A DNA stretch of 64,000 bases from the IMG/VR virus record IMGVR_UViG_3300048587_000389, positions 1-64,000 of that record; one strand, 5' to 3'. Below are positions 43,896 to 64,000 of the stretch, piece after piece (the stretch's first letter is position 1; each line of letters begins with the position of its first letter). The position numbers and the translations under genes were made by a program. Source of the DNA: a virus. Taxonomy: Duplodnaviria; Heunggongvirae; Uroviricota; Caudoviricetes. The notes under the pieces were generated by a model, which was not told the origin of the DNA, did not search any database, and was given only the letters and a program-made list of their open reading frames with translations.

Positions 43896-44370
43896 GAGTG
43901 CAAAAGATAAAAAAATTGAACTCATAAAAGCGTTTAAGGGAGCACTTGGAGCAATCACAGTGTTTTCTGATGTGTTTGATTTGTATCTAATTAACCCGTA
44001 TTCTCACGTAAATACAGATGATGTATTAGACTGGCTTAAAGATGCTGACTGTCAAGGGACGTTCAGAAAGATCATTCCTTTTGACGAACAGCTTAAAAAC
44101 TTCTACTTAGACAACGGTATTAGTGTTACAATAACTTCAAGCAGACAAATTGCTTCTGCAACAAAAGACATCTCTAATGTGTACTTTTTGAAAAAGGCGC
44201 ATGTTAAAGATGATATTGATACTCAAATACTAAAAGTTGTTAGATGGCGTGACATAATAAGAGATGTCACTAAGTTTGCATCTACAGAGATAAACTATGA
44301 TATTAGACCAGATCAAGTCAACATGGAACAATCTGACAACAAAGAGTCAGAAAGCCCAATACAGCCTTAG
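43837..44370 (+). CDS. hypothetical protein
   Basis: CAAGGAG RBS at ATG 43837 (in frame with track ORF 43729). Confidence 0.45.
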   Translation: MPKIVKALKIAIDLQSLLDKSAKDKKIELIKAFKGALGAITVFSDVFDLYLINPYSHVNTDDVLDWLKDADCQGTFRKIIPFDEQLKNFYLDNGISVTITSSRQIASATKDISNVYFLKKAHVKDDIDTQILKVVRWRDIIRDVTKFASTEINYDIRPDQVNMEQSDNKESESPIQP

Positions 44371-48616: not shown

Positions 48617-48814
48617 ATGAAAATCGAAATAACAACGAACGATACATTTGATCCTGAATCTACGGTCATTGTTGTCAATGGCAACAAGTACAAGAATACC
48701 GTGGGATTACAATTAAAAATAGCAAAGGATGCTCATGGTTCGTTAGTTATTGAGCACGAATCAGGCTACCTCGAAGCATATCAAGCCAAGGAGGAAAAGA
48801 AAGACTATGAATAA
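48617..48814 (+). CDS. hypothetical small protein
   Basis: 65-aa ORF. Confidence 0.4.
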   Translation: MKIEITTNDTFDPESTVIVVNGNKYKNTVGLQLKIAKDAHGSLVIEHESGYLEAYQAKEEKKDYE

Positions 48815-50138: not shown

Positions 50139-50660
50139 ATGTCTGAAGATAAATCATTACTTGAAAAAGTAAACAAAACTCTTGAAGCTATAACTGCACT
50201 CAAGACCGGTGAACCAACACAAAAAGTTGAAGAAGTTGCGGAGGTTAAAGATGAAGCTGTTGAAGAAGTTAAAGCAGAATCTACTGAAACAGAAGCAAAA
50301 GAAACAGAAGCAGCTGAAGAAGTTGCAGAAGTGGAAGCAGTTGCAGAAGCAACTGAAGCTGGCGAAGAGGAAGTTAGCAAAGAGGATGAGGGGAAAGAAG
50401 CATCAGTCGAAACTCCAGTCGTTAAAGCAGCTGAAGTAAAAGTTGATGTATCCGCTCAAATTTCTGAAAAAGTACTGGAAGCAGTTACTGGTTTAGCATC
50501 AGTCGTTAAAGGACTTGCACAAGACGTTGAAGCATTGAAGAATGCTAAGACATCTAAGAAAAGTGTAATGCCTGACGAAGTTAAATCTGAGGAAGCTCAA
50601 GAAGATACAGAGCAAGCAAAAGCTCTTAAACACGCAAATTACATTTTCGGGAATAAATAA
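50139..50660 (+). CDS. acidic scaffold-like protein
   Basis: E/A/K-rich alpha-helical low complexity, located between protease and MCP. Confidence 0.5.
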   Translation: MSEDKSLLEKVNKTLEAITALKTGEPTQKVEEVAEVKDEAVEEVKAESTETEAKETEAAEEVAEVEAVAEATEAGEEEVSKEDEGKEASVETPVVKAAEVKVDVSAQISEKVLEAVTGLASVVKGLAQDVEALKNAKTSKKSVMPDEVKSEEAQEDTEQAKALKHANYIFGNK

Positions 50661-50752: not shown

Positions 50753-51697
50753 ATGTCAGAAGTCGACGTAAAGAAGGCTTTGGGTGGTGTTAACACTAGC
50801 GCAGGTCAAGGTGGAGATTTTATCCCTCGTGATCTTGCTGCAGAACTTATTGAATACGTAAAATGGAACTCTGTTGGACGTAATCTTTGGGATCAAGTGG
50901 TAATGCCAACTCCAGTTTTCGATATACCTAAACTCACTGGCGTCAACTCTATCTACTTTGTAGGTGAAGGCTCACAACCAACTCAATCTGGAATGGCAAC
51001 TGCACAAGTTACCCTTACAGCTAAGAAGTTGATGGGTATCCTTACAGTAGACGCAGAAATTGACGAAGACTCAAAGATTGCTCTTCTCCCACTTATCAAA
51101 CAGGACTTCGGTACTGAAATTGGTTTGGCAGAGACAGACGCATTTTTCAATGGAGACACAGATTTTGCAGTCAGTGATCACCCAAGAAAAGCATTTGATG
51201 GTTTGAGAAAACTTGCTACTGGTTCAGCAGTTGATGCTGCCGGTTCAAGAATTACTCTCCGTCACTTGAATCAAGGTCTTGTGAATCTTGGCCGATACGG
51301 TCAGAACCCAATGATGATTGACGTCTTTGGCGCTCCTGTTGTTATTGGTGAGCTTCGTAAGCTGTATGCAGACTTTGATAAATACACTGTATTTAACCAA
51401 GGCGCACTTAAGACTGGACAAGTCGGTGCAATTTGGGGAATGAACGTGTATGTCAATGGTTTGATTCCTACAGATCTTACATACGGCGGTTCAACTGGTT
51501 CAGGTTACACTGAAGCCCTTTTGGTCCATCGCAAGACACCAATCATCGGAGACCGAAGAGCAATTAAGTTCAAAACATTCGATCAGATCTGGACAGACCA
51601 GACTCTCATCGTTCCGTCAGAACGTATTGCATTCAATGTTCGTTGGAGAGACGCTATCGTCAAGATCACTAACTTAGAGGCAACTCTCAGTGCGTAA
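50753..51697 (+). CDS. major capsid protein (HK97 fold)
   Basis: 314 aa after scaffold; AAGGAGG RBS; composition and length typical. Confidence 0.6.
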   Translation: MSEVDVKKALGGVNTSAGQGGDFIPRDLAAELIEYVKWNSVGRNLWDQVVMPTPVFDIPKLTGVNSIYFVGEGSQPTQSGMATAQVTLTAKKLMGILTVDAEIDEDSKIALLPLIKQDFGTEIGLAETDAFFNGDTDFAVSDHPRKAFDGLRKLATGSAVDAAGSRITLRHLNQGLVNLGRYGQNPMMIDVFGAPVVIGELRKLYADFDKYTVFNQGALKTGQVGAIWGMNVYVNGLIPTDLTYGGSTGSGYTEALLVHRKTPIIGDRRAIKFKTFDQIWTDQTLIVPSERIAFNVRWRDAIVKITNLEATLSA

Positions 51698-51733: not shown

Positions 51734-52684
51734 ATGTCTGATCTTATACAGATCAAGCATCTCGAGAGTCCCAACATTACAACATTTGTAAATGGGAAAC
51801 AAATCGAGATTCGGAACCATTCAGCGTTTGTCGATCGTGAGACCGCAAAAGCTATGATGGAAGGACCGTTTGGATACGAGTTGGTTGGCATTTATGACAA
51901 CTTTCTCGAATTCACAAACAACATCCCCGTAAACTTGACTGAATTTGAAGGACTAGCTGCTCCTGATAGCACGGTAATTGTGGCAACTCCGTTAGCAGGC
52001 CACAAACTCTATTCATGGGCTCGTTTAACCGAGTCTTTTTTAGCGTCAGAATCTAAAAGACGCTTACATATTGTATTCACAATAGATGATCCAAATGCTG
52101 AGTGGCGCAAGTCTGTAGAAGATTGGGCGCAAGCAAATGTTCATAATTTCAAAAAGATCACAATAATTATCTGGGACCACGATGCAATCATGGCATGGAA
52201 TCGTGTGTTCAAAATTACAGTAGGACGACAACTCATTTTCAACTATGCTCGTACCACTGATGCTTCTCATCTTTGGTTTGTTGATTCAGACACTATTCAC
52301 AAAGGTGATGCTCTTCCAAAACTGCTTTCACACAACAGAGACTGTGTATCAGGACTCTATCATTTTAAGAGTGTTATGGGTGGCGGTCCTGTAGTATTTG
52401 ACGGACAGGGTGACAGAACAATGCCACCTTCATGTTTAGGAAAACAACGTGTAGAAGTGAAGCCAAATTCAGGACTTTATGAAGTAGATTGGACCGGAGC
52501 GGGGAGTTTGCTAGTTACTAAAAAGATATTTTCAAGATATAATTTTAACTGGAGCAAATGGATTCAACGCAATGGTGAAGACGCCTGGCTTTGTATGATG
52601 GCGCAACACGAAACTAAACAAAAAACTCTCGTAGATACTTCAGTGCATGCGGTACATCTTGATGAATCAGGAAGGGAATGGTAA
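51734..52684 (+). CDS. glycosyltransferase-like protein with N-terminal PNIxTFxxGKQI domain
   Basis: N-terminal about 50 aa paralogous to next gene; FVDSDT DxD-like motif. Confidence 0.45.
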   Translation: MSDLIQIKHLESPNITTFVNGKQIEIRNHSAFVDRETAKAMMEGPFGYELVGIYDNFLEFTNNIPVNLTEFEGLAAPDSTVIVATPLAGHKLYSWARLTESFLASESKRRLHIVFTIDDPNAEWRKSVEDWAQANVHNFKKITIIIWDHDAIMAWNRVFKITVGRQLIFNYARTTDASHLWFVDSDTIHKGDALPKLLSHNRDCVSGLYHFKSVMGGGPVVFDGQGDRTMPPSCLGKQRVEVKPNSGLYEVDWTGAGSLLVTKKIFSRYNFNWSKWIQRNGEDAWLCMMAQHETKQKTLVDTSVHAVHLDESGREW

Positions 52685-53925
52685 TGAACGTAAAAGTAAG
52701 ACACCCAAATCACCCTAATATCATGACGTTTATTGATGGTAAGCAAATCACCATCAAAGACCATGAGGGATGGACAGATTTTGATACAGCAGTCAAACTT
52801 ATTGATGCGCCCTTCGGTTATGAATGGTGCCCAGGATCACTTCCTTTCAATCCAGAAACTTGGACAAAAGAACACAAGATAATCACTTGGAATCACATTA
52901 TGCCGTATTATGAAGGATACGGATATGTTGGACAAATGATGCTTAAAGGCTTGACAAATATCGGAATCGATGCTAGAGTTTTCTACAAATCTGATGCTTC
53001 ATACATCAACCGTGAGGCTTTAGAAGCTCTTTGGAAGGATCGTTCATTTGACAGTTGGGGTATATGGCATCACTTCTGGATGAAGCCTAATATGATGCCA
53101 CACAAGAAAAGAGCAATGTACACAATGTGGGAGAGCACCAAGCTCAATGAGGGCTGGGTATCTGCATGCAATGAAGTAAACTTGCTTTTTGTTCCATGTC
53201 AAGAAAATGTAGAGATATTTCAAAAGAACGGTGTCACGACTCAGATTGAAGTTGTAGAACACGGCGTAGATCAAGAATACTACTACTATCGTCCAAAAGT
53301 AAAGAAAGACAAATTCCGTATTGGTACAATGGGAAGTCTGGTTCCGCGCAAAGATCCTGAACTTCTTATTAGAGCATTCCTAGACGAGTTTAAAGATCAA
53401 GATGATGTTGAACTCTATCTCAAAGACACAAACGAAGATACAGAAATTGAGCGCAAGTACAAAGACGAAAAACAGCTTATTTTCAATGGCAAAAAATTAT
53501 CACCACTAGAGGTAGGAGAGATCCTCGCTTCTTTTGATATTGCAGTGTTTCCATCACACGGAGAAGGATTCGGCTTGGGAGGATTACAGGCAATGGGGTG
53601 CGGAACAACATGTATCTGCACTGGTTGGTGTGGCTACAAACAATATTTGAATCCGGAGTATAACTATGAACTTAAATACAAGCTCGTCGATATTGACAAG
53701 GTTGCATCAAACAACACAACATATAGTGGACAGTGGGCACAAGGTGATTATGAACATCTACGTCAGCTTCTCCGTTATGCTTATGATCATCAAGATGAGA
53801 TTCATGACAAAGGAAGAAGAGCTGCGCAGTGGGTTAAAGAGCATTGGACTTGGGAAAGAGCAGCCAAACAAATAGTAGACGCAATTGACAAATGGGAGAG
53901 ACAGCATGGCAACAGTAGCTGCTAA
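52684..53925 (+). CDS. GT4-family glycosyltransferase with same N-terminal domain
   Basis: FPSHGEGFGLGGLQAMGCG (E-x7-E region). Confidence 0.55.
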   Translation: MNVKVRHPNHPNIMTFIDGKQITIKDHEGWTDFDTAVKLIDAPFGYEWCPGSLPFNPETWTKEHKIITWNHIMPYYEGYGYVGQMMLKGLTNIGIDARVFYKSDASYINREALEALWKDRSFDSWGIWHHFWMKPNMMPHKKRAMYTMWESTKLNEGWVSACNEVNLLFVPCQENVEIFQKNGVTTQIEVVEHGVDQEYYYYRPKVKKDKFRIGTMGSLVPRKDPELLIRAFLDEFKDQDDVELYLKDTNEDTEIERKYKDEKQLIFNGKKLSPLEVGEILASFDIAVFPSHGEGFGLGGLQAMGCGTTCICTGWCGYKQYLNPEYNYELKYKLVDIDKVASNNTTYSGQWAQGDYEHLRQLLRYAYDHQDEIHDKGRRAAQWVKEHWTWERAAKQIVDAIDKWERQHGNSSC

Positions 53926-54619
53926 CATCATTGTTGGACAGAAATACGAGCAATATTTTCAATTCACACTTCAATCAATAAAGTGGGTGGATGAAATTGT
54001 CATAGTCAATACTGGAGACAGTAACAACCCCAACCTCAAAACAATAAGAGACTTTGCACCAAATGCAAAAGTTATTCAATTTGAAGGAGCATTCACATTT
54101 AGTGCAGCAAGAAACAAGGCACTTGAGAATACTAAAAGTCTTTGGATTTTGTGGGTAGATGCAGATGAAGTACACTTCAATGATTTTGAGCGAGTAGTAA
54201 GAGAAATTATAGCAGCTCCCAAAGGGGACGCATATCAGTTTGGCTTCCACCACTTCATTCTTGATATGTTCCATTATCAAAATATAGATTTGCGTCTCAA
54301 TCTCTTTATGAATGTAGATAAGAGATGGCATGGCAATGTGCATGAATATGTGCATCCAATTCAAAAAGCAGTTCCTCACGAATATCGCTATCACCACTAC
54401 GGATATACAAAGCCACAAAGAGAGATCTATGAAAACTGGCGTCTCTATTGGAGTCTCAACCCAGATGAATTGTCAAAACTCAATGAAGAGCGTGATCCTG
54501 ACGGTATCATATCTGATAGAGTAACAGTTGCGCACCCGTACATCGGGCCGTATCCTGAAGTGATACAATCTTATATACAACAACAGCCTATGAAAGTAGA
54601 TGGATACAAATTTCTATGA
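53906..54619 (+). CDS. GT2-family glycosyltransferase
   Basis: IVIVNTGDSN, ARNKALE, WVDADE. Confidence 0.5.
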   Translation: MATVAANIIVGQKYEQYFQFTLQSIKWVDEIVIVNTGDSNNPNLKTIRDFAPNAKVIQFEGAFTFSAARNKALENTKSLWILWVDADEVHFNDFERVVREIIAAPKGDAYQFGFHHFILDMFHYQNIDLRLNLFMNVDKRWHGNVHEYVHPIQKAVPHEYRYHHYGYTKPQREIYENWRLYWSLNPDELSKLNEERDPDGIISDRVTVAHPYIGPYPEVIQSYIQQQPMKVDGYKFL

Positions 54620-55275
54620 CAAAGACAGGAATAATTCTCACAACTTACAACAATTTAGAAATGACCAAAAAAGCTCTCAAAAGCTTGATGGAGAATACTA
54701 AAAACTTTGAGCTTGTCATAGTTGATTGCGCATCAACAGATGGAACTGTAGAATGGGTAGAACAACAAGGCATTCAAATGATTCACTTTGACAAGTATGT
54801 GTCTTTAACAGAAGCTCTTAACGCAGGCATTCGCCACTTTTTTGATAAAGAAAAGCCAGATCTCTACTACAATATTTGTTGGATTCACAATGACATGACT
54901 TTTGAGAAGGGATGGTTAGAAGCTCTTGAAGTTTATCTTGATCACAATCCAAAATGCGGCAGAGTCTCATCACAGAATACAAGAGATTCAATTGAGCCAG
55001 AGAGACCAGGAAATGAATTACCTTGCTTGATACGAGGTCACGTGTTGAAACAGATAGGACTTTTTGATGAGAGGTTTATTGGTATAGGTGGCCGAGAAGA
55101 TTGGGATCTGAATAAAAGAATACTAGACAACGGTTTCAGTGTAATGATTACACCAACGAGTAGAGTGTATCATGTAGGTATGGCAACACGCAGCCAGAGA
55201 AACACTGATGCAGAGGCTGATCATAATGCAGCTGTGTATTTTCAGAAATGGGGCACATATAATGGATTCGTCTAA
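54616..55275 (+). CDS. GT2-family glycosyltransferase
   Basis: GIILTTYNNLEMTKKALKSL, VIVDCASTDGT. Confidence 0.55.
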   Translation: MTKTGIILTTYNNLEMTKKALKSLMENTKNFELVIVDCASTDGTVEWVEQQGIQMIHFDKYVSLTEALNAGIRHFFDKEKPDLYYNICWIHNDMTFEKGWLEALEVYLDHNPKCGRVSSQNTRDSIEPERPGNELPCLIRGHVLKQIGLFDERFIGIGGREDWDLNKRILDNGFSVMITPTSRVYHVGMATRSQRNTDAEADHNAAVYFQKWGTYNGFV

Positions 55276-56029
55276 GAAGATTACGGTCATCATGCCGTGC
55301 TATAAAAATACTGAGTACACAGACAGAGCTATTGCTAGTTTATTGCGCACAAGCAAGAGACTTAAAGAGATCATCATAATTGAGAATGACCCAGAAGGAT
55401 CTACTCTCATGATGCTCAAAGAGCGAGGCTACACGTGCAGTATTCTTTGGAATAAAGAAAATGCAGGCGTATCAAAGTCATGGAATGCAGGCATTTATAT
55501 GTCATCAACTGATTTAGTTGCAGTTGCTAACAACGACATTGAAATGATTACGGAAGGATGGGATGATATTGCTGTTCAGTATTTTGAGAAGAATGAAAAA
55601 GCAGCAATAGTATGTTCATGGCCGGTAGGACACAGAGACGAGTTTCTGAATCCGAACAATGATCCTGTTGAAGGGTTGAACGGAAGCTTCTTTGTTGTCA
55701 GCAAAGAGAAGGTACGAGAAACAGCTAACTTCAAACTCAAAAGAGAGTATATCGATACAGAATACACACCAGCATATTGGGAAGATGCAGATCTTTTAGT
55801 ACAGGTAAGAGCGCAGAAATATGAATCATACGTTCTTCCAAGTATAAAAATGGTGCACTTCTCAAATACTACAGCAAGACAAATACTTCCTTCACACAAA
55901 GGAATGGACAACCCTTACTGGAAAAACTTAGACTACTTTAATAAAAAATACGGAGTTCATATCTGGGACTATTTTAAGGTTCACCTTAGTAATGTCTTAG
56001 ACGAAAATACAAATGCCAGACTCATCTAA
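55262..56029 (+). CDS. GT2-family glycosyltransferase
   Basis: ITVIMPCYKNTEYTDRAIASL. Confidence 0.55.
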   Translation: MDSSKKITVIMPCYKNTEYTDRAIASLLRTSKRLKEIIIIENDPEGSTLMMLKERGYTCSILWNKENAGVSKSWNAGIYMSSTDLVAVANNDIEMITEGWDDIAVQYFEKNEKAAIVCSWPVGHRDEFLNPNNDPVEGLNGSFFVVSKEKVRETANFKLKREYIDTEYTPAYWEDADLLVQVRAQKYESYVLPSIKMVHFSNTTARQILPSHKGMDNPYWKNLDYFNKKYGVHIWDYFKVHLSNVLDENTNARLI

Positions 56030-56549
56030 ACTACAACCAAAAGAAGAGATAGAACAGTTTTACGAGACTCCTGACCCATGGGGTTACAAGACTCGTGAAG
56101 ATGATGCTATTCGTAAAGCACTGATTATCGGTGCTATTCCAGTTGATGATTACGAGTCTGTTCTTGATATTGGCTGCGGTGAAGGATTCATCACAGAAAC
56201 ACTTCCTGGAGAAAAAGTTCTTGGTATTGATATTTCAGAAAAAGCAATAGAACGAACAAAGCCAACACCACGTATTAGATACATTGCTGGCGACATCAAT
56301 GAAATGCATTTAAGTCCACGAAGCGTAGATCTTGTTATTGCAACAGGAGCTCTCTATCCGCATTATGTGACTAAAGAAACAATTGATAAAATTATAAAAG
56401 CCACAAACAAGTATCTTGTGACATGTCATATTGAAACGGTTGGGAAAGTAGAGATACCGTTAGAGCCAATTAAACGCGGCTTCTTCAAATACAACGGCAT
56501 GGTAGAAGAGCTTTGTGTTTATGATTTAAGAACAAATCTCATTCTATGA
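56013..56549 (+). CDS. SAM-dependent methyltransferase
   Basis: VLDIGCGEGF motif I. Confidence 0.55.
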   Translation: MPDSSKLQPKEEIEQFYETPDPWGYKTREDDAIRKALIIGAIPVDDYESVLDIGCGEGFITETLPGEKVLGIDISEKAIERTKPTPRIRYIAGDINEMHLSPRSVDLVIATGALYPHYVTKETIDKIIKATNKYLVTCHIETVGKVEIPLEPIKRGFFKYNGMVEELCVYDLRTNLIL

Positions 56550-57049
56550 TTTACGTAGCACATGAACTAAAACAGAAACATATTGACTTCATACGAAGCA
56601 AACAGAATTGGGTATTCTTAAACGACTACACTGATCCTGTAAATCAGAATGTGATGACTTTTGATGGTCCTTACACTTCTCTTCTTGAAGGTGCAGATCA
56701 ACTTAAGATCCCGTTTGAGGTGTTTGTCTTTTGGGGCAATCTCGGAACAGATCGTCTTAAGAATACAGATCAGCGATTCTGTACATGGGATGAAACAAAG
56801 CAATTAGAAAAATATGGTGCAAGATTACAGTGGCACACAAGAACACATCGAAGACTAACTGAGATTGATGCGCAAGAACAAGAATTTGACATCATACCAG
56901 CATTTGAATGTGAGTGGTTCGCTTATCCATACGGAGACTTCAACGAATCAGCAAAAGAGATAACAAAAAAGTATTATAGAGGAGCAGTATCGGTTATTCA
57001 AGGTAACGACACAGATGTGTATTGTTTAAACCGATCAGACATATCATGA
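56546..57049 (+). CDS. polysaccharide deacetylase (NodB/CE4-like)
   Basis: MTFDGP (TFDDG motif), LQWHTRTHRRL His motif. Confidence 0.5.
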   Translation: MIYVAHELKQKHIDFIRSKQNWVFLNDYTDPVNQNVMTFDGPYTSLLEGADQLKIPFEVFVFWGNLGTDRLKNTDQRFCTWDETKQLEKYGARLQWHTRTHRRLTEIDAQEQEFDIIPAFECEWFAYPYGDFNESAKEITKKYYRGAVSVIQGNDTDVYCLNRSDIS

Positions 57050-57732
57050 CAGTCGGTGTAGCAATATCAAGTTATAAGTACGGAATGTATCTGGCAAATT
57101 GCCTTGATTCTGTATTTGCGCAAACAAAGAAGCCTGATCAAATCATCGTAGTAGATGATGCTTCAGATGATGGTGGCTTGACTAAACACATAGCTGACAT
57201 GTGGGGCGTTGAGTGTATAGTTCGTGAAAAGAACATGGGCACAAGAGACAACTTTCAAGACATTCTTGTAAATCACATGAAGACTGATCTTATGTTCTTT
57301 CTTGGAGCAGACAACTGGCTTCACCCTCAATACATAGAGCGTACATACGAGCAAATCAACGACAGAGTAAAGTTAGTTGGTACTAACACATACATTGTTG
57401 GAGAATTTGGAAACATGGTTTGTCACATTGCTCCTGACTGGTACAATGATTCTAGAGATCTTCCGATGTGGGATTACAAAGAGAAGAATCTCGAATATGA
57501 CAACTGGATTCATGGGTCTGCATTATTTGATAGAAAAATTGCTATTGAACTCGGCGGCTTTTATCCAAGTGTTGTGACACAGCTTTCTGATCACGATATG
57601 TGGAGAGCATTTTACAAAGCAGGATGGGAAGTAAGAAAATCAGATCTTCCACTTCTTTATTATAGAAAGCACAGATTTAATTTCAATCAAAGTGAAGTGA
57701 AACTGGGCATTGAACAACGAGGACAAAAATAG
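57046..57732 (+). CDS. GT2-family glycosyltransferase
   Basis: VGVAISSYKYGMYLANCLDSVFAQT, IIVVDDASDDG. Confidence 0.55.
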   Translation: MTVGVAISSYKYGMYLANCLDSVFAQTKKPDQIIVVDDASDDGGLTKHIADMWGVECIVREKNMGTRDNFQDILVNHMKTDLMFFLGADNWLHPQYIERTYEQINDRVKLVGTNTYIVGEFGNMVCHIAPDWYNDSRDLPMWDYKEKNLEYDNWIHGSALFDRKIAIELGGFYPSVVTQLSDHDMWRAFYKAGWEVRKSDLPLLYYRKHRFNFNQSEVKLGIEQRGQK

Positions 57733-57733
57733 T

Positions 57734-58009
57734 ATGAACATCTCACAAATACATCCAGTAGCAGGTTATGTTATTGTCAAAGAGCAAGAAGAGGGTGAAG
57801 TAAAAACAGCATCAGGCTTGATTCTTACAACAGGAACAGAAAAACAGAGCGATGGAACAATTGTAGCTCTTGCTGATGATCTTAAAGAAACATACAAGAT
57901 TGGTGACAAAATCATCTTCAAGAGATGGACTGTCAATGAGTATAAGATCAGCGATAAAACATATCAATTTGTTAAGCATGAAGATGTCCTAGCGCTTATT
58001 AAGGAATAA
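57734..58009 (+). CDS. groES: GroES-like co-chaperonin
   Basis: 91 aa; VKTASGLILT, mobile-loop and GDKIIFKRW pattern of Hsp10. Confidence 0.55.
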   Translation: MNISQIHPVAGYVIVKEQEEGEVKTASGLILTTGTEKQSDGTIVALADDLKETYKIGDKIIFKRWTVNEYKISDKTYQFVKHEDVLALIKE

Positions 58010-58010
58010 C

Positions 58011-58895
58011 ATGAACATAGCAATAATGTCAACATATAATCAGGTATGCGGCATAGCAGACTATACTGCATCGCTTGTTCGTCATATTCCTGAAGAACAC
58101 GAAGTTAAGATCATTGCGCCGTATCTTACAGAAGTGCACCCATCAGTGTGTGCTGTCGGTCCAGAAGATCCAAGAACACATCGCTATTTTAACGCCACAA
58201 TATGGGACGGGCGCATAGGAATAGAAGCTGATAAAATCACAGAGATAGCAGAGTGGGCTGATGTACTACACATCCAGTTTCAAGATGCGCTCTATCACCA
58301 TGACTGGTTTTTGATTCTCTTAAAACGACTACACGGAAAGTGCAAACTAGTAGTAACTCTCCACGATACATGTCTTGGAAAGATCTGGCCGCTCATGGAT
58401 TTCTTTGATGAAGTCTTTACAATGAAGCCAGAGGTAAAAGCACAAGCTCCAAGAGCTCAGCTCATCCCGATGCCTATCTACAACCGCAAGCCGCTTTTGA
58501 AAGGGTTTGGTCTCGGCAGAAGTAAACACGATGTCATCAGTAGGATTTGTAATGACTTAAGGATAGATTACCAATACACAAAGGCTGATGACAACTGGAT
58601 GCCCATCGATGAACTGCTTGTATGGTTAAGGGATTCAGACGGTATCGTACTGTTCTATGATGAAGTTTCTACAGCTGGTTCATCTGCAGGTGCGCGTACA
58701 GCGCTCTCTACACGTAGACCAGTCTTTGTCAATAGAGTAACATGGTTCAACGACATCCCAGAAGATGCAGTCATCAAATTCAATGACGAATTAGATCTTA
58801 AGCGTGTGCTTGAGGAGCATTTTTCTAACGACTATATGGAAAAGTGTTCGTATGAAAACGTCATCTCGCAGCATTTAGAAGCATATTCTAGATAA
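58011..58895 (+). CDS. possible GT4-like glycosyltransferase
   Basis: N-terminus MNIAIMSTYNQVCGIADYT resembles GT4 N-domain. Confidence 0.3.
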   Translation: MNIAIMSTYNQVCGIADYTASLVRHIPEEHEVKIIAPYLTEVHPSVCAVGPEDPRTHRYFNATIWDGRIGIEADKITEIAEWADVLHIQFQDALYHHDWFLILLKRLHGKCKLVVTLHDTCLGKIWPLMDFFDEVFTMKPEVKAQAPRAQLIPMPIYNRKPLLKGFGLGRSKHDVISRICNDLRIDYQYTKADDNWMPIDELLVWLRDSDGIVLFYDEVSTAGSSAGARTALSTRRPVFVNRVTWFNDIPEDAVIKFNDELDLKRVLEEHFSNDYMEKCSYENVISQHLEAYSR

Positions 58896-58997: not shown

Positions 58998-59519
58998 ATG
59001 GCAGCAACATATAACTGGGCTCAAAGATACGGTGCCCCTGCGGGTACTGAAGTTGATCTTGGTGCTTCAGGAAACTTGTTTAACTTTAAGACTGCTGATG
59101 ATGCTACTGCAGCTAACTATTCCTCAAACCCTATCACTGCTTCAGATGCAGCTGATGGTGGTAACTCATACGAGGTATGGCTACGTGCTCACTTTACCGG
59201 AACATTCAACCAGATTGATAACCTTCAATTCTGGATGAGTACAAACTTCTCTCCATCAACAGGTTTAACTGTTAACTGGAAGGGAAATAACTCTGGTTCA
59301 TACGCAGCACCAACTACAGATGATTCAACTGTAGCAACTGCATCAGTACCAACATCAGATCCAGGTACAGCAAACGTGTCAATTGGCACATCACTATCAG
59401 GCAACCTTACAGCCGCAGGCTACTCAGACTATATTGTCTTGCAGCTTCATGTCGGTACTACGGCTGCTTCTGGTGATACGTCACTTGCAACATTTACTTT
59501 GCAGTACGACGAGCAATAA
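58998..59519 (+). CDS. Ser/Thr/Ala-rich virion-associated protein (candidate glycosylation substrate or tail tube)
   Basis: strong RBS ATAGGAGATCATAATG; composition. Confidence 0.45.
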   Translation: MAATYNWAQRYGAPAGTEVDLGASGNLFNFKTADDATAANYSSNPITASDAADGGNSYEVWLRAHFTGTFNQIDNLQFWMSTNFSPSTGLTVNWKGNNSGSYAAPTTDDSTVATASVPTSDPGTANVSIGTSLSGNLTAAGYSDYIVLQLHVGTTAASGDTSLATFTLQYDEQ

Positions 59520-59536
59520 AATGAAAGGGCAATACA

Positions 59537-59848
59537 ATGCTACAAACAAATCCAGATAATCAAGAATTCATAAACGCAATCAAGAACCTTCAAGAAGGTG
59601 AAACGATTGAAGTAGCAGACGGCACACTCTTAGTAGAAGCCGTCTTTTCAGTGCCTACTCATTTTAGATGGCATCAAAACATATTCAAACCAGGCATGAT
59701 CCTCAAGAAACAAGACTCTAATGCTAGAGTTTATGTAAGTGCAACACAGCTTGGATGGACTCTGGAATCATATCCAGAAGATTACTTTGAGGACAGACAA
59801 ATAGTTGATGGTGAGGTGCTTTCAGCACAAGGTCACCCAACAGAATAA
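59537..59848 (+). CDS. hypothetical protein
   Basis: 103-aa ORF. Confidence 0.45.
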   Translation: MLQTNPDNQEFINAIKNLQEGETIEVADGTLLVEAVFSVPTHFRWHQNIFKPGMILKKQDSNARVYVSATQLGWTLESYPEDYFEDRQIVDGEVLSAQGHPTE

Positions 59849-59863
59849 AAATTAAGGAGCAAT

Positions 59864-60289
59864 ATGAGTGACATACAAGTCAATCACAAATACGACGTAA
59901 ATTGGGAATGGATCGCTGAATATCAAGATGGAAGCATTCTAAATGAAGACTTCTACTCTGAAGATCCAAAGAATTACGGTCACATAGATCACGAAAGATT
60001 AGTGTGGCTTTGGTTAGTACCAGTTGGTCAAAGACAAATGCGCAGATTTGGAGTTAACTTAAAGACAGGAATGTTTTTGATTAACGGTGTAGAAGTACAC
60101 ACTGCGTTGCCAGAAGGTGAACGACGCTTGATCAACTTTAAGCGAGTTCAGCAACAGTTTGGACCTGATGCACAGCCTGCATCTTGCAGACACGGAATAG
60201 GATTCCAAGTTACAATTGATGACGTAAACTATCAGCAGTTTATGCTTATTGATCCAGATGGCAAAATTACAATAAGCAACAAGAAATAA
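59864..60289 (+). CDS. hypothetical protein
   Basis: AAGGAGCAATATG RBS. Confidence 0.5.
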   Translation: MSDIQVNHKYDVNWEWIAEYQDGSILNEDFYSEDPKNYGHIDHERLVWLWLVPVGQRQMRRFGVNLKTGMFLINGVEVHTALPEGERRLINFKRVQQQFGPDAQPASCRHGIGFQVTIDDVNYQQFMLIDPDGKITISNKK

Positions 60290-60336
60290 AGACGAATTAC
60301 ATCGGCTTGAGTTCAATACAATGAGCGCAATGAAGA

Positions 60337-60363
60337 AGCTAGCCGATGTGCTAGCTTTTTTCG
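60337..60363 (+). terminator. rho-independent terminator
   Basis: AGCTAGC-CGATGT-GCTAGCT then TTTTTTC. Confidence 0.65.
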
Positions 60364-60376
60364 TATAGGGATCAAT

Positions 60377-63300
60377 ATGGCAATTGCATTAGATGCAGCC
60401 TCTAGTCAAAGCACAGCTACAGCGACATCTCTGACATTCTCTCACACAGTGAGTGCAGATGCGGATCGTTACCTTGTAGTTGGCGTGCACTGGGAAGGTG
60501 ATTCTGATGACATCACAGGCGTTACATTTAATGGTGACGCAATGGAGAGAATCGGAATGGTTGCAGGCTATTCTGGTTGGATCTATGCTTACGGTCTTGT
60601 AAACCCAGATTCAGGAACACACGATGTTGTAGTTTCTGCTGGCACTTCAGATAAAATTGTAGCCGGTGCTGTATCATACGAAGGTGTTCACCAAACAGTT
60701 CCTGTTGACAACAAAGTTTCAGATTTCAATTCAGGTATTTCATCTGGCTCTTGGAATGGTGCTGAAGTTCTCACACGTGTTACAGATTCATGGGGTGTTC
60801 TCATGTCAGACAAGACAGCAGGCGGAACAATGTCTGCTGGTGGTGGATCAACACACAGATCTTCAGGTAACGGCTTCGGTATCTTTGACTCTAATGGTGC
60901 TCTTGGTGCCCCTGCGCTAGAAAGAATGAATGCTTATGCATCAGACGGTACACAAAACTGGGCACACATGCTGTTCAATCTTATTCCATCTGGCGCTACT
61001 CTCCCTGCCGGTATTCTGATTCACAATACAACTAACGGAAACAACACAGACTTTTCACACGTTCATCCAGCAGATTTAACAAATGATGCTCTTATCGTTA
61101 TGATAGGAACTCATCAGGGTGTCATCACAGGAGTTACGTACGGTGGCGAAGCAATGACTAAGCTTGCTGAAGGTAGCTCATCAAATGACGAAGACGGCTC
61201 TATTTGGATGCTTCTTGATCCACCTACTGGATCAAACACAGTTGACATCACTCGATCAGGTGGCTCATGGCATGGAGCTACTGCACTTTCAATATCAAAC
61301 GTAAGACAGTCTACAACACCTATCACATCTGCTTCTACTGAGGGTGGAAATGAGTCAAGCCCAGATATTGACATTACTCCTCTTTCAAATAACAACCTGA
61401 TTCTTACTGCAATCGGTGCTGAAGCTTACACATATACTGACGATCCTCAGGTTACCCTTGCTGGTATTCACGGTCAGTCTTATGAAGCAATGGCTGCGTC
61501 AATGTACATTCAGCAAAAAGCTGCTACATTCAACTCACAAACATATTTAGCATCAGGCCAGAGATATGGTTTAGCAGTAGTTGCTCTAGAACCAGAGTAC
61601 GCTTACGGAATCAACTCTGTCAGCCAAGCAACTGCAGCAGCAACAACAATCACTATCCCAGCACATCAAACAGGAGACTTGCTTGTTATATACGCTGCTA
61701 GAAATGGTAGCACAACAGCACCTACAGTTCCTTCAGGATGGACAACAGCCGGTGTCAATACTGGAACAACGACATCATGTGTGTCAGCATACAAGACTGC
61801 AGCTTCTGGTTCAGAGACATCAGGAACATGGACAAATGCAGGTTTATTAGCTTGTCATGTATACCGTGGCGCAGGAATGGCTGTTCGTCATGCCGGTGCT
61901 AATGGATCAAGCACAACTGTTAACTACTCAGGTGTAACAACAATGTCATTACCGGGACAATCACATGGTGTCCGTTTCTCAATGACTTCTGTTACAAATG
62001 CTTCTCTAGAAACAGCCCCATCAGGATTCTATAACAAAACAAATCTATCAAGCGGTTTTGAGATTGCTGGTCATGATACTCATTATCCAACATCATCAAT
62101 AGCATTTGCGGGTGTGTCTGTCGGTGGAACAAGCGGTAACTGGATTTCACAGTCTCTTGAACTTCTACCATCATTCGGTAACCCAGTTATTGAGGCCTCA
62201 ACGGGAAACAACTCAGGCAACGTTCTTGGTAATGTATCTACATCATCACATGCAGGTTACATTGGAAGTATCACTGCTTATCTTGATGCTTCTGCTGCTT
62301 CAAGAGTCGGTAAGTTTGCGCTTTATGATGCAACATCAGATGCACTGCTTGGTGTTACAGCAGAAATAGCTGTTTCTGAAACAGCAAGCTGGCAAACAGC
62401 AAGCTTTACTACTCCGATTGCTGTTACTGCTGCGACAAACTACTATGTTCTTGCTTTATGTGACGGAAGTACTCAAGTCACAATAGCTCGTACAGCTGCT
62501 ACAGACGCAGGTAGATTTGTAGCACAATCATACGCATCAGGATTCCCTGACCCAAGTGGAACATCAACAAACAACTTCCGCTATTCTATATTTGCTAACT
62601 ACACAACATATACACCACCTGCGTCAACAACGTATACTGTCACGGTAACTGCAAAAGCTAGAGTTAAAGCAACACAAACAAAAACAGTAACTGCTAAAGC
62701 TCGTGTTAAGAGTGCAGGTACTACACGCACTGTTACAGCTAAAGCGCGTGTTAAGTTCTTGCGAACTGTAACTGTTACTGCTAAGGCAAGAGTTAAAAAT
62801 GCGCAAACAAAAACTGTTACAGCTAAAGCAAAAGTTGTTCACAAAGCAGAGACATTATCTGATAACTTCAATGACAATTCAATTGATGGCGCAAAATGGA
62901 CTGGTGATGATGCAAGCATTGATGAGGTAAACAACCAGCTAGAGATTACACTCGGAACTGGATCAAGCTATCACCAATTAGAAACAGTCAACAAGTATTC
63001 ACTTGTTGGATCACGATTCTCAGCTCAAGTAGTATCAGCAGGCAATCAGGCAACATACCCATCACACAGTGCAATTATTTATGCTCGCTTTGGTGATGAT
63101 CACAACAACAAGATTTACATCTCAATTGCTGATGAAGAAATAGTCATCCACAAAATTGTTGGTGGTGTAGGTACAAGTGTAGGAACACCTCTAGCATACG
63201 ATCCTGATGTGCACAAATATGTTGCTATCAGTGAGCTTGCTGGTGAAACTTACTTTGAGTACTCTACAGACACTACAAGCTGGTCAAACATCATTGATCC

Positions 63301-64000
63301 AGTTACAAGCCCAATTGATACTCGCGAGCTTACATTTGCTATCCAAGGTGGTAAGTGGCAGACAGAAGCTGCGGGTGACACAATTATATTTGACAATGTC
63401 AACCTTGGCACACTCACACGTACTGTTCAAGCAAAAGCTAGAGTCAAGAAATTAGCACAGACAGTTACTGTCCAATCTAAAGCAAGAGTTAAGAAGCTTG
63501 CTCAGACAGTCACTGTAACCGCTAAAGCTCGTGTTAAGTCATCTGGTACAATAAGAACTGTTACAGCAAAAGCTCGTGTCAAAACAACACAGACAGCAAC
63601 AGTCAGTGCAAGAGCATTTGTTGTATCTGCAACAAGTACAGAAACAGTTACTGTAACTGCAAAAGCTCGTATTAAAGTTGTACAAACTGCAACAGTTACT
63701 GCAAAAGCCAGAGTTAAAGTTACACAGACTCAGACTGTTACTGCTAAAGCAAGAGTTAAATCACTTGGCACAACAAGAACTGTGACTGCTAGAGCTCGTG
63801 TTAAACAGATCAACAACACTGTTACTGTAACTGCTCGTGCTAGAGTAAATGTTATTCAGACAGTTACTATCACAGCAAAAGCTAGAGTTAAGAATGCGCA
63901 AACTCAAACTGTCACATCAAAAGCTCGTGTAAAACGACTTGGTATGACTCAGACAGTTACTGCAAGAGCACGTATTGCTGGTGCAGGTACTCCTGTGACT
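60377..64000 (+). CDS. very large repeat-containing structural protein (more than 1208 aa, 3' end beyond window); candidate tail fibre or receptor-binding protein
   Basis: open frame from ATG 60377 to window end, not in ORF track because no stop; three N-terminal about 190-aa domain repeats and about 19 tandem 13-aa TVTAKARVKxxQT repeats in two blocks. Confidence 0.65.
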   Translation, partial: MAIALDAASSQSTATATSLTFSHTVSADADRYLVVGVHWEGDSDDITGVTFNGDAMERIGMVAGYSGWIYAYGLVNPDSGTHDVVVSAGTSDKIVAGAVSYEGVHQTVPVDNKVSDFNSGISSGSWNGAEVLTRVTDSWGVLMSDKTAGGTMSAGGGSTHRSSGNGFGIFDSNGALGAPALERMNAYASDGTQNWAHMLFNLIPSGATLPAGILIHNTTNGNNTDFSHVHPADLTNDALIVMIGTHQGVITGVTYGGEAMTKLAEGSSSNDEDGSIWMLLDPPTGSNTVDITRSGGSWHGATALSISNVRQSTTPITSASTEGGNESSPDIDITPLSNNNLILTAIGAEAYTYTDDPQVTLAGIHGQSYEAMAASMYIQQKAATFNSQTYLASGQRYGLAVVALEPEYAYGINSVSQATAAATTITIPAHQTGDLLVIYAARNGSTTAPTVPSGWTTAGVNTGTTTSCVSAYKTAASGSETSGTWTNAGLLACHVYRGAGMAVRHAGANGSSTTVNYSGVTTMSLPGQSHGVRFSMTSVTNASLETAPSGFYNKTNLSSGFEIAGHDTHYPTSSIAFAGVSVGGTSGNWISQSLELLPSFGNPVIEASTGNNSGNVLGNVSTSSHAGYIGSITAYLDASAASRVGKFALYDATSDALLGVTAEIAVSETASWQTASFTTPIAVTAATNYYVLALCDGSTQVTIARTAATDAGRFVAQSYASGFPDPSGTSTNNFRYSIFANYTTYTPPASTTYTVTVTAKARVKATQTKTVTAKARVKSAGTTRTVTAKARVKFLRTVTVTAKARVKNAQTKTVTAKAKVVHKAETLSDNFNDNSIDGAKWTGDDASIDEVNNQLEITLGTGSSYHQLETVNKYSLVGSRFSAQVVSAGNQATYPSHSAIIYARFGDDHNNKIYISIADEEIVIHKIVGGVGTSVGTPLAYDPDVHKYVAISELAGETYFEYSTDTTSWSNIIDPVTSPIDTRELTFAIQGGKWQTEAAGDTIIFDNVNLGTLTRTVQAKARVKKLAQTVTVQSKARVKKLAQTVTVTAKARVKSSGTIRTVTAKARVKTTQTATVSARAFVVSATSTETVTVTAKARIKVVQTATVTAKARVKVTQTQTVTAKARVKSLGTTRTVTARARVKQINNTVTVTARARVNVIQTVTITAKARVKNAQTQTVTSKARVKRLGMTQTVTARARIAGAGTPVT

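What the first reader, a model, noticed from the sequence alone, without database searches (positions are those of the whole stretch)
51734..58895. Glycosylation island directly after the major capsid gene: 6-7 glycosyltransferases, methyltransferase, CE4 deacetylase, GroES
Eight to nine consecutive rightward genes starting 37 nt after the capsid gene encode GT2/GT4-type glycosyltransferases, a SAM methyltransferase, a NodB-type deacetylase and a GroES homologue. A carbohydrate-building cluster in the head-gene operon points to post-translational glycosylation of virion proteins rather than host-polysaccharide metabolism. Two GT proteins (51734, 52684) share a paralogous about 50-aa N-terminal domain (HxxxPNIxTFxxGKQIxIxxH ... 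PFGYE), a possible targeting or substrate-recognition module. Candidate acceptor proteins lie nearby: the S/T/A-rich 58998 protein, the Q/P-rich 46964 protein, and the PT-linker secreted protein at 5435.
Basis: partly seen in the sequence, partly recalled or inferred. Interest (0 to 1): 0.75.

Follow-up and report, generated by a model that had tools for sequence, protein, structure and literature searches.

The report
Sugar-adding gene cluster beside phage capsid gene
An uncultured ~94-kb phage carries ten tightly packed genes right after its capsid gene, seven of them sugar-transferring enzymes, which most likely coat the virus particle with a sugar layer, something so far shown only for phages of mycobacteria.

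Summary
Ten abutting + strand genes (51734-58895) start 36 nt after an HK97-type capsid gene. Seven have a glycosyltransferase (GT) fold: B (GT4) and C, D, E, H (GT2) pass Pfam thresholds, while A (GT-A) and J (GT-B) are shown only by confident structure models. The other three are a NodS-like SAM methyltransferase, a short CE4 deacetylase that has lost its metal-binding Asp (TFDG, not TFDD), and a GroES. A and B share a roughly 50-aa N-terminal domain (44% identity, E 2e-12), found in no other protein family among 1.84 billion representatives.

In five related phage loci, A-E follow the capsid gene, and in the three that reach the far end J closes the island. The middle is a swappable cassette, and methyltransferase-CE4-GT2 travels as one unit.

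No island protein has a membrane segment. No flippase, polymerase, priming transferase or DNA hydroxymethylase was found.

The best reading is glycosylation of virion proteins in the cytoplasm late in infection, analogous to mycobacteriophage Corndog but not homologous to it. No glycan or acceptor is shown. GroES is probably a passenger that helps head assembly. I rate this a new variant of a known kind, of moderate interest.

The parts
50753..51697 (+). Major capsid protein (HK97 fold family). It is the upstream anchor of the island and a candidate glycan acceptor.
   Evidence: phrog_10 3.4e-20; PF05065 in orthologues. It is 81-88% identical in relatives, and the C-terminus ...ITNLEATLSA is conserved.
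51734..52684 (+). A: orphan N-terminal domain (aa 1-50) plus a GT-A fold glycosyltransferase with a D184-x-D186 motif
   Evidence: No Pfam, PHROG, NCBIfam or PDB sequence hit. AF2 pLDDT 91.9. The best Foldseek PDB matches are ColGalT1 (3e-11), the LH3 GT domain, Mimivirus R699, Mnn9 and ppGalNAc-transferases. Only 18 close homologues in 5.8e9 proteins, and none in 50,697 deposited phage records.
52678..53925 (+). B: the same N-terminal domain (aa 1-50) plus a GT4-type GT-B glycosyltransferase
   Evidence: PF13692 1.6e-13, PF00534 3.9e-13; phrog_2170 2.4e-38. N-domain is 44% identical to A's, E 2e-12.
53906..54619 (+). C: GT2 glycosyltransferase (the ORF list starts it at 53885 TTG; ATG 53906 has a GGGAGAG Shine-Dalgarno site)
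   Evidence: PF00535 6.3e-11. The best NCBIfam hit is SunS peptide S-glycosyltransferase, 5e-6 and far below its cut-off. Start-codon analysis.
54616..55275 (+). D: GT2 glycosyltransferase
   Evidence: PF00535 1.6e-15
55262..56029 (+). E: GT2 glycosyltransferase (likely start 55262; the ORF list gives 55208)
   Evidence: PF00535 7.4e-16. Orthologues are 252-256 aa. Start analysis.
56013..56549 (+). F: SAM-dependent methyltransferase, NodS-like; first gene of the variable cassette
   Evidence: PF13649 2.8e-13, PF05401 NodS 9.3e-6. Shared only with L006 (58%) and L096 (53%).
56546..57049 (+). G: short CE4 / NodB-type deacetylase homologue lacking the metal-ligand Asp (TFDG)
   Evidence: PF01522 1e-7, above cut-off. 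PDB 6go1 E 6e-4. The alignment shows H97/H101/D40 kept and TFDD changed to TFDG in both phage members.
57046..57732 (+). H: GT2 glycosyltransferase (likely start ATG 57046, overlapping G's stop by 4 nt)
   Evidence: PF00535 9.9e-17. Travels with F and G in L096.
57734..58009 (+). I: GroES / Cpn10 co-chaperonin. Positionally in the island but probably a head-folding helper.
   Evidence: PF00166 5.7e-15, phrog_3188; NCBIfam GroES models 1e-12. No orthologue detected in the relatives sampled; relative L003 has a distant Cpn10 at another position.
58011..58895 (+). J: compact GT-B fold protein that closes the island
   Evidence: Pfam only sub-threshold (PF13439, 21.1 bits vs cut-off 28.5). AF2 pLDDT 92.4. 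Foldseek finds BshA 3e-11, the GT4 protein BA1558 and PimA. Cellular homologues lie in polysaccharide loci. 64-68% identical in the three relatives whose loci reach this far (L001, L003/L091, L005).
58998..59519 (+). K: S/T-rich (24%) orphan protein directly downstream; a possible acceptor or decoration protein (speculative)
   Evidence: No Pfam, PHROG or PDB hit. No homologue in relatives. The first protein after J is 24-29% S+T in the window and the three relatives that extend that far, against a background of 9-13%.
60377..64000 (+). Giant S/T-rich ORF (>1207 aa, runs off the window) with 17 'TVTAKARVK' units; a possible fibre or decoration protein and acceptor (speculative)

Best explanation
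The island is a phage-encoded, cytoplasmic system that builds an oligosaccharide directly on virion proteins late in infection.

Shown:
- It is transcribed with the head genes.
- It encodes seven soluble GT-fold proteins. Six of them (A-E and J) are conserved in related phages and frame a replaceable middle cassette.
- A and B, which have unrelated catalytic folds, share an N-terminal domain found nowhere else.

Inferred:
- The transferases use host nucleotide-sugars, since the island has no sugar-activation genes.
- They add sugars one at a time to Ser/Thr (or other) residues of the capsid protein and/or the S/T-rich proteins encoded just downstream.
- A and B, the first two genes after the capsid gene, use their shared domain to dock on a common partner (acceptor, scaffold or procapsid). 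A, whose fold is closest to GT-A enzymes that glycosylate proteins, is the best candidate for the first, protein-linked sugar.
- C, D, E and J extend the chain.
- The middle cassette decides the outer structure. In this phage the unit GT2 (H), CE4 (G) and NodS-like methyltransferase (F) would add a HexNAc, remove its acetyl group and methylate the freed amine, if G is still active.
- In other relatives a GT1_2-GT2-methyltransferase cassette takes the place of F-G-H, giving a different glycan, much as serotype cassettes do in bacterial polysaccharide loci.
- The resulting glycan coat would change virion surface properties such as shielding, stability or adhesion.
- The GroES gene is a co-chaperonin for folding the capsid protein. 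It happens to sit in the variable cassette.
For: - Operon fusion to the capsid gene: 36-nt gap with a Shine-Dalgarno site and no terminator, and overlapping genes throughout.
- Family and fold assignments.
- Conservation: capsid gene followed by A-B-C-D-E in five related loci (L001, L002, L003/L091, L005, L006); A-C are also seen in L097 before its contig ends, and J is present in the three loci that extend far enough. Identities of 48-71% resemble portal (65-67%) and protease (52-59%), so the island is inherited with the head module.
- GC content of the island equals the genome average.
- No hydrophobic segment in any island protein (19-residue hydropathy maximum 1.17). No Wzx, Wzy, ABC-transporter or priming-transferase family among the Pfam hits.
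- A's nearest solved structures are collagen galactosyltransferase, LH3, Mimivirus R699 and polypeptide GalNAc-transferases.
- A relative carries an extra GT2-TPR fusion just downstream.
- Cassette modularity, with F-G-H linked in L096.
- The N-domain is restricted to A and B, two copies per genome, and absent from 1.84e9 other representatives.
- S/T-rich proteins lie directly downstream in the window and in the three relatives that extend that far.
- Precedent: Corndog has portal, O-methyltransferase, three GT-like genes, protease, capsid. These enzymes modify capsid and tail tube (PMC11600133; PMC12363180).
- Independent recurrence of GT-A-like genes between coat and adaptor genes in P22-like phages.
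Against: - No glycan, acceptor or enzyme activity is demonstrated, and the phage is uncultured.
- Soluble GT2/GT4 enzymes also act on lipid-linked intermediates in ordinary polysaccharide pathways, so the lack of membrane segments is not decisive.
- J's cellular homologues sit in Wzx-type polysaccharide loci.
- A's fold matches have only modest TM-scores (about 0.5), and the GT-A fold does not predict the acceptor.
- There is no sequence homology to the proven Corndog enzymes.
- The CE4 lacks a metal ligand, so the deacetylation step may not occur.
- The MCP itself is not S/T-rich (12%).
- About 30 kb of the genome lies outside the window and was not examined.
Confidence: 0.55

Rival explanations
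1. The enzymes remodel a host envelope glycan (O-antigen, teichoic acid, capsule or S-layer glycan) during infection by acting on host lipid-linked intermediates. This would block superinfection or stop progeny from sticking to cell debris.
For: - Phage GT2/GT4 PHROG families are catalogued as 'moron / host takeover', including GtrB-like O-antigen conversion hits for E and H.
- J's cellular homologues lie in Wzx-type polysaccharide loci.
- The best NCBIfam hits are exopolysaccharide or teichuronic-acid GTs, though all fall far below their cut-offs.
- This interpretation was published for a GT between portal and capsid genes in 'Gratiaviridae' (PMC8008677).
Against: - No flippase, polymerase, priming phosphoglycosyl-transferase or GtrA/GtrC-type membrane partner was found in the island or in the window ORFs scanned.
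- Expression coupled to the capsid gene comes late for changing the cell surface before lysis.
- The phage shows no lysogeny genes in the window, and its 31 tRNAs fit a lytic style. Seroconversion is typical of temperate phages.
- The position after the capsid gene is kept across relatives, and the same placement arose independently in P22-like phages.
Confidence: 0.22
2. The transferases glycosylate the phage DNA, hypermodifying hydroxymethyl-pyrimidines to evade restriction.
For: - Phage GTs that hypermodify DNA with multi-sugar glycans are known (bioRxiv 10.1101/2023.12.21.572611, listed; cited in PMC12619734).
- J's GT-B fold also matches T4 alpha-glucosyltransferase, E about 1e-8, among many GT-B hits.
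- The phage encodes a serine hydroxymethyltransferase that could supply one-carbon units.
Against: - No thymidylate-synthase-like hydroxymethylase, 5mC dioxygenase, DNA methyltransferase or base-kinase was found among the window ORFs scanned.
- The island lies in the late head operon, not with the replication or nucleotide genes.
- Seven GTs plus a deacetylase exceed known DNA glycan systems.
- A's closest folds act on proteins.
- About 30 kb of the genome is unseen, so this is not fully excluded.
Confidence: 0.07
3. The island makes a free or secreted oligosaccharide or glycoconjugate. The NodS-like, NodB-like and GT2 genes suggest a Nod-factor-like methylated, deacetylated chito-oligosaccharide. 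It would act as a signal or metabolite and would not be attached to the virion.
For: F, G and H resemble NodS, NodB and a GT2, and they are inherited as a unit.
Against: - H is a small soluble GT2, not a processive membrane NodC-type synthase.
- There is no NodA-like acyltransferase or exporter.
- The CE4 has lost a metal ligand.
- The cassette is optional within a conserved island fused to the capsid gene.
Confidence: 0.05

Closest known systems
Mycobacteriophage virion glycosylation (Che8, Corndog, Myrna; Freeman et al. 2023, Cell Host Microbe 31:1216; not held in the library, known here through PMC11600133, PMC12363180, PMC12619734 and PMC11256854)
   Same: Both have phage-encoded GTs plus a methyltransferase. 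In Corndog the cassette (O-methyltransferase gp35, then gp36-38) is embedded in the head operon between portal and protease. The acceptors there are virion proteins. The enzymes are soluble and there is no export machinery.
   Different: - There is no detectable sequence homology to Corndog gp36-38 (BLAST; hhalign for gp37/gp38 gives probability <1%).
- This island has 7 GT-fold genes against 2-4 there.
- It adds a CE4 homologue and a conserved-flank / variable-cassette layout.
- It carries an orphan N-terminal domain shared by two GTs.
- It lies after the capsid gene rather than before the protease.
- The phage has 40% GC and probably does not infect an actinobacterium.
- Glycosylation is not demonstrated here.
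Giant-virus capsid and fibril glycosylation (chlorovirus PBCV-1 Vp54 with A64R / A111/114R; Mimivirus fibril glycans and R699)
   Same: Virus-encoded cytoplasmic GT-A enzymes, together with methyltransferases, build unusual glycans on structural proteins independently of host glycosylation machinery (PMC7826918 and PMC9614988, abstracts listed). Mimivirus R699 is among A's best fold matches.
   Different: Those viruses infect eukaryotes, their GT genes are dispersed rather than fused to the capsid operon, and they often encode nucleotide-sugar synthesis. None of that is seen here.
Bacterial O-antigen and capsule loci with conserved flanks and a variable serotype cassette
   Same: The architecture matches: conserved outer genes (A-E, J) around an exchangeable central block of GTs and modifying enzymes. 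J's homologues live in such loci.
   Different: There is no Wzx, Wzy, ABC transporter or priming transferase, no nucleotide-sugar genes and no membrane proteins. The location is a phage head operon.
T4 gp31 and other phage-encoded GroES homologues
   Same: Gene I is a Cpn10-family protein encoded among head genes. By established knowledge, T4 gp31 replaces GroES to fold the major capsid protein.
   Different: Gene I is a bona fide Cpn10 by sequence, whereas gp31 is highly divergent. Its role here is untested, and it is not conserved across the clade.

Membership tests
Phage virion glycosylation system (mycobacteriophage Che8/Corndog type) | Phage-encoded glycosyltransferase(s), often with a methyltransferase | tested here: met
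   seven GT-fold proteins plus one SAM methyltransferase.
Phage virion glycosylation system (mycobacteriophage Che8/Corndog type) | Glycans covalently attached to capsid and/or tail-tube subunits | not testable with these tools
   This needs virions or recombinant proteins plus mass spectrometry or glycostaining.
Phage virion glycosylation system (mycobacteriophage Che8/Corndog type) | Homology to the essential GTs (Corndog gp38 / Che8 gp110 structural cluster) | tested here: not met
   hhalign of the A profile against Corndog gp38 and gp37 gives probability 0.1-0.2%. BLASTP of Corndog gp35-38 against all island proteins finds nothing at 1e-3. Only A's profile was compared by hhalign, and a structure-level comparison was not possible.
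Phage virion glycosylation system (mycobacteriophage Che8/Corndog type) | GT cassette embedded in the virion structural operon (Corndog arrangement) | tested here: met
   Window: capsid gene followed by A...J with overlaps. Corndog: portal, methyltransferase, GTs, protease, capsid.
CAZy GT2 / Pfam PF00535 (C, D, E, H) | Score above Pfam's gathering threshold for Glycos_transf_2 | tested here: met
   42.9, 57.9, 59.0 and 61.8 bits against a cut-off of 23.3.
CAZy GT4 / GT-B (B, J) | Glycos_transf_1-type C-terminal domain above threshold; two-Rossmann GT-B fold | tested here: inconclusive
   B is met: PF13692 51.6 bits and PF00534 49.8 bits. J has only a sub-threshold N-domain hit (21.1 < 28.5), although its model is a GT-B fold matching GT4 enzymes at E 3e-11. 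No canonical E-x7-E motif is seen among J's invariant residues.
GT-A fold, GT25-like protein glycosyltransferases (A) | GT-A Rossmann-like fold with a DxD metal site; family-level sequence match | tested here: inconclusive
   The fold and an invariant D184-x-D186 are met. No Pfam or NCBIfam family match. The best fold hits are GT25 ColGalT1, but with a TM-score of only about 0.53.
CE4 / NodB-homology deacetylases (G) | PF01522 above threshold and an Asp-His-His metal triad with a catalytic Asp (motifs TFDD, H-x3-H, R/A-x-P-Y) | tested here: inconclusive
   Pfam gives 32.3 bits against a cut-off of 23.1. H97-x3-H101, AYPYG and the first Asp are present. The second (metal-ligand) Asp is Gly in both phage members, while the nine aligned cellular homologues keep TFDD. 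The protein is shortened to 167 aa.
GroES / Cpn10 (I) | PF00166 above threshold over the full length | tested here: met
   55.6 bits against a cut-off of 21.1, covering profile positions 2-93 of 93. No NCBIfam GroES model reaches its curated cut-off, so this is a divergent member.
Lipid-carrier-dependent surface polysaccharide pathway (Wzx/Wzy or ABC type) | Priming phosphoglycosyl-transferase, flippase or transporter, polymerase; membrane proteins | tested here: not met
   No such Pfam family appears in the island or in the window ORFs scanned. No hydrophobic segment in island proteins. Genome outside the window was not seen.
Phage DNA glycosylation (T4 alpha/beta-GT; 5hmC/5hmU glycan hypermodification) | A pyrimidine hydroxymethylase or 5mC-dioxygenase that makes the acceptor base, with GTs among early or DNA-metabolism genes | tested here: not met
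   None was found among the window ORFs scanned, and the island is in the late head operon. This holds within the window only.

The most novel reading that the evidence does not exclude
A clade of large uncultured phages, probably not infecting actinobacteria, builds a complex 'glyco-serotype' coat on its virions. Two initiating transferases of unrelated folds are brought to the assembling capsid by a shared, otherwise unknown 50-residue docking domain. A swappable cassette between conserved flanks changes the outer glycan, as bacterial O-antigen loci do. Together with the GT genes next to coat genes in unrelated P22-like phages, this would mean capsid glycosylation is a widespread and diversifying phage trait rather than a mycobacteriophage curiosity.
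Probability: 0.3. Interest if true: 0.75.

Novelty: new variant of a known kind. Interest (0 to 1): 0.55.

Why it matters
Glycosylated phage particles have so far been shown only for a few actinobacteriophages, and a recent genome announcement states that bacteriophages are not typically glycosylated (PMC11256854).

If this island does coat virions, several things follow:
- It extends the phenomenon to a different and much more elaborate system, with seven transferases plus modifying enzymes.
- Glycan structure would vary between closely related phages through cassette exchange.
- It offers a candidate protein-targeting domain for cytoplasmic glycosylation, which could be useful for glyco-engineering of protein nanoparticles.

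A glycan coat would affect phage stability, adhesion to mucus or particles, recognition by immune systems and grazers, and possibly host range. The recurrence of GT genes beside coat genes in unrelated phages gives a simple genomic marker for surveying how common the trait is.

Tried and rejected
- Close cultured relatives: megablast of the capsid-plus-island region against 50,697 phage records found nothing. The capsid protein reaches only about 25-30% identity to deposited phages. Gene A has no tblastn match even at E 0.01.
- Sequence-only identification of A and J: Pfam, PHROGs, NCBIfam and PDB sequence or profile searches gave nothing usable. Structure prediction was needed.
- N-domain elsewhere: a profile search of 1.84e9 representatives found only the A and B families. 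The third hit, P0069, is a 13-fold tandem-repeat protein matching 22 positions repeatedly, and I rejected it as spurious.
- Homology to Corndog's proven enzymes: rejected.
- Streptomyces phage GT context (BoomerJR): that GT sits beside RNR and lysis genes, not the capsid gene, so it is uninformative.
- Host assignment through the phage SHMT: the best hits, 60-64% identity, are spread over Bacillota and many other phyla. This is only a weak hint.
- Retrieving the rest of the window's own contig failed, because proteins M and J are not in the gene-position index.
- K as an identifiable structural protein: no hit in Pfam, PHROGs or PDB.
- A terminator between the capsid gene and A: none found.
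- DNA-modification genes in the window: none found.
- Freeman et al. 2023 itself could not be read. Its content is cited second-hand.

Full report
**Setting.** The window is part of an uncultured tailed phage whose own contig is 94,156 bp. It has about 40% GC throughout, including the island. It carries 31 tRNA genes, a full-length serine hydroxymethyltransferase, a class II ribonucleotide reductase, RtcB and other accessory genes. The late operon on the + strand runs as follows:
- portal, 44297-45946
- small genes
- S78-type prohead protease, 48750-49832
- an acidic scaffold-like protein, 50139-50660
- an HK97-family major capsid protein, 50753-51697

The large terminase lies far away at 14432-16027.

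**Checking the observation.** Ten genes (A-J here) fill 51734-58895 without a break.
- A starts 36 nt after the capsid stop codon, behind an AAGGAG ribosome-binding site, with no hairpin between them.
- All later junctions overlap or abut. Start-codon inspection moves C to 53906, E to 55262, H to 57046 and I to 57734.
- Pfam places B in Glycos_transf_1 / GT4 and C, D, E, H in Glycos_transf_2. It places F in SAM methyltransferases (including NodS), G in Polysacc_deac_1 (CE4) and I in Cpn10, all above the curated thresholds. PHROGs agrees.
- A had no hit in any profile library or in PDB sequence searches. J had only a sub-threshold Glyco_transf_4 hit.
- An AlphaFold2 model of A, built on 18 homologues, is confident (pLDDT 91.9). 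It is a GT-A fold. The best PDB matches are human collagen galactosyltransferase ColGalT1 (E 3e-11), the GT domain of lysyl hydroxylase LH3, Mimivirus R699, yeast Mnn9, STIV A197 and polypeptide GalNAc-transferases. D184-x-D186 and H308 are invariant in the family.
- A model of J (pLDDT 92.4) is a compact GT-B fold matching the GT4 enzymes BshA, BA1558 and PimA.
- The island therefore holds seven GT-fold proteins, a methyltransferase, a CE4 homologue and a GroES.
- A and B share their first 50 or so residues: 20 of 45 identical, E 2e-12.

**The CE4 protein.** G is 167 aa. It keeps the catalytic Asp, the H-x3-H pair and the AYPYG motif. In G and in its one close phage relative the motif reads TFDG, whereas the nine aligned cellular homologues read TFDD. 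The Asp that normally binds the metal is therefore missing. G belongs to the family, but its activity is uncertain.

**Comparative anatomy.** Only 18 close homologues of A exist among 5.8 billion clustered proteins, and none among 50,697 deposited phage genomes.
- Five related phage loci were compared directly (L001, L002, L003/L091, L005, L006). In each, A-B-C-D-E follow the capsid gene. Three of them come from contigs of 78-94 kb; L002 and L006 end before the far side of the island. A further relative, L097, shows the same portal-protease-capsid-A-B-C order by Pfam annotation before its contig ends.
- J closes the island in the three loci that extend far enough (L001, L003/L091, L005).
- Identities are 48-71% for A-E and J. 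Portal is 65-67%, protease 52-59% and the capsid protein 81-88%. The island has therefore been inherited along with the head module.
- Between E and J the content changes. This phage carries F-G-H-I: methyltransferase, CE4, GT2 and GroES. L006 shares F.
- A small contig, L096, carries F-G-H in the same order at 46-53% identity behind a different GT. These three genes move as a unit.
- L001, L003/L091 and L005 instead carry a Glyco_trans_1_2 protein, a GT2, a Methyltransf_23 protein and a ~115-aa unknown protein. L001 adds a TylF-like Methyltransf_24, an HNH endonuclease and an Acb2/Tad1-hairpin protein, and L003 adds a distant Cpn10.
- The layout is thus conserved flanks around an exchangeable cassette.
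- Downstream of J the genomes diverge completely. K, L, M and the giant ORF have no homologue in the relatives.
- Even so, the first protein after J is 24-29% Ser+Thr in the window and in the three relatives that reach that far, against 9-13% for other proteins of this phage.

**The shared N-terminal domain.** In the six-frame translations of the window and of relatives L001-L006, an HMM of the domain finds exactly two copies per genome, on A and on B. A profile search of 1.84 billion representatives finds only the A and B families, plus one spurious tandem-repeat protein. In the model of A it forms four short strands and a helix. One orphan module on two enzymes with unrelated catalytic folds points to a shared partner. 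What that partner is remains untested.

**What the island acts on.** No island protein has a hydrophobic segment. The ORFs scanned contain no flippase, polymerase, ABC transporter, priming phosphoglycosyl-transferase or nucleotide-sugar enzyme. The enzymes must therefore work in the cytoplasm on host-made sugar donors.

Four lines of evidence favour virion proteins as acceptors:
- The island is physically and translationally coupled to the capsid gene, and this coupling is conserved.
- The proven case of mycobacteriophage Corndog also places its cassette inside the head operon. I confirmed the order portal (gp34), TylF-like O-methyltransferase (gp35), gp36, GT2-like gp37, GT25-like gp38, protease (gp39), capsid (gp41). 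The literature states that these enzymes modify capsid and tail-tube proteins (PMC11600133; PMC12363180; PMC12619734).
- A's nearest folds are protein-glycosylating GT-A enzymes. C's best, though weak, NCBIfam match is the peptide S-glycosyltransferase SunS. A relative carries a GT2-TPR fusion just downstream.
- The same placement arose independently. In the P22-like podovirus contigs L093/L094, two A-like GT-A genes lie between the major head protein and the head-tail adaptor. In deposited genome MW202691, a homologue annotated 'polysaccharide biosynthesis' lies between the P22 coat protein and the tail accessory factor.

**Proposed mechanism.** Steps beyond gene content and context are inferred.
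1. Late in infection the island is transcribed with the head genes.
2. A and B dock through their shared domain. A is the best candidate for the first, protein-linked sugar.
3. C, D, E and J extend the chain.
4. The cassette finishes it. Here H would add a HexNAc, G would deacetylate it (if still active) and F would methylate the free amine. This follows the established chemistry of NodB and NodS.
5. Relatives with the other cassette would make a different outer glycan.
6. GroES is best read as a capsid-folding helper, by analogy with T4 gp31 (established knowledge).

It sits in the variable cassette and is not conserved across the clade.

**Rivals.**
- Host-envelope remodelling is the main alternative. 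It has been proposed for a late-operon GT in gut phages (PMC8008677). Soluble GT2/GT4 enzymes do act on lipid-linked sugars, and J's cellular relatives lie in Wzx-type loci. Against it stand the lack of any membrane partner, the late timing, and the conserved and recurrent capsid linkage.
- DNA glycosylation is unlikely. No hydroxymethylase or related gene was found in the window and the island is in the head operon. About 30 kb of the genome is unseen, however.
- A free Nod-factor-like product is the least likely.

**Comparison and novelty.** The island works like the mycobacteriophage virion-glycosylation system but is not homologous to it. BLAST and hhalign against Corndog gp35-38 are negative. 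It is larger and modular, and it has an orphan domain shared by two GTs. It sits in a 40%-GC phage that is probably not an actinobacteriophage; the host is unknown, and SHMT gives only a weak Bacillota hint. I classify it as a new variant of a known kind.

**Limits.**
- No glycan or acceptor is demonstrated.
- Freeman et al. 2023 could not be read directly.
- The rest of this phage's genome could not be fetched.
- The roles given to individual enzymes are inferences from fold and context.

Noticed in passing
window 3967-26646 (+): There are 31 tRNA genes covering nearly all amino acids, most of them in a dense array at 22463-26646. That is unusually many for a ~94-kb phage.
   Followed up: no
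window 1046-2278 (+): A full-length serine hydroxymethyltransferase (PF00464, E 9e-162). The best cellular matches are only 60-64% identical and are spread over Bacillota and many other phyla. It is an uncommon phage metabolic gene and gives at most a weak host hint.
   Followed up: partly
window 60377-64000 (+), runs off the end: A giant ORF of more than 1207 aa with 24% Ser+Thr. It has 17 copies of a ~14-15-residue 'TVTAKARVK' unit in two blocks and a weak DUF4082 hit. It may be a fibre or decoration protein.
   Followed up: partly
window 58998-64000 versus L001, L091, L005: Everything downstream of J (K, L, M, giant ORF) has no homologue in relatives whose capsid proteins are 81-88% identical. 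The island sits at the edge of a hypervariable region whose first protein is always S/T-rich.
   Followed up: partly
L001 17567-18311: In one relative, an HNH homing-type endonuclease (with NUMOD3) and a protein with an Acb2/Tad1 hairpin domain (anti-CBASS/Thoeris sponge family) are inserted inside the variable cassette of the glycosylation island.
   Followed up: no
L091 12224-17848: The 94-kb relative has several extra genes downstream of its island: a GT2-TPR fusion, a WD40 beta-propeller protein, and a 1057-aa protein with a weak BclA C-terminal-domain hit.
   Followed up: no
L093 6061-11255; MW202691 24971-28707 (L095): Unrelated P22-like podoviruses carry GT-A-like genes between the coat gene and the tail-accessory or adaptor genes. 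In L093 these belong to phrog_1574, listed as 'unknown function'. In MW202691 the gene is annotated 'polysaccharide biosynthesis'. phrog_1574 may deserve re-annotation as a glycosyltransferase family.
   Followed up: partly
window 19090-22100 (+): A LemA, SPFH/Band 7 and TPM-domain gene trio, a membrane-associated module usually found in bacteria.
   Followed up: no
window 34472-37503 (-) and 27369-28277 (+): An RtcB RNA ligase with an HD-domain protein nearby, a possible tRNA-repair counter-defence alongside the tRNA array. There is also a radical-SAM protein of unknown role.
   Followed up: no
window 14432-16027 versus 44297-45946: The large terminase gene lies about 28 kb from the portal gene, separated by the tRNA array and a leftward gene block. 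This is a non-canonical arrangement of the packaging and head genes.
   Followed up: no
window 46964-47737 (+): Between portal and protease lies a protein with a moderately hydrophobic N-terminal stretch (possibly a membrane anchor) and a Q/P-rich tail. It is only 25-30% identical in relatives. Its role in the head operon is unexplained.
   Followed up: no
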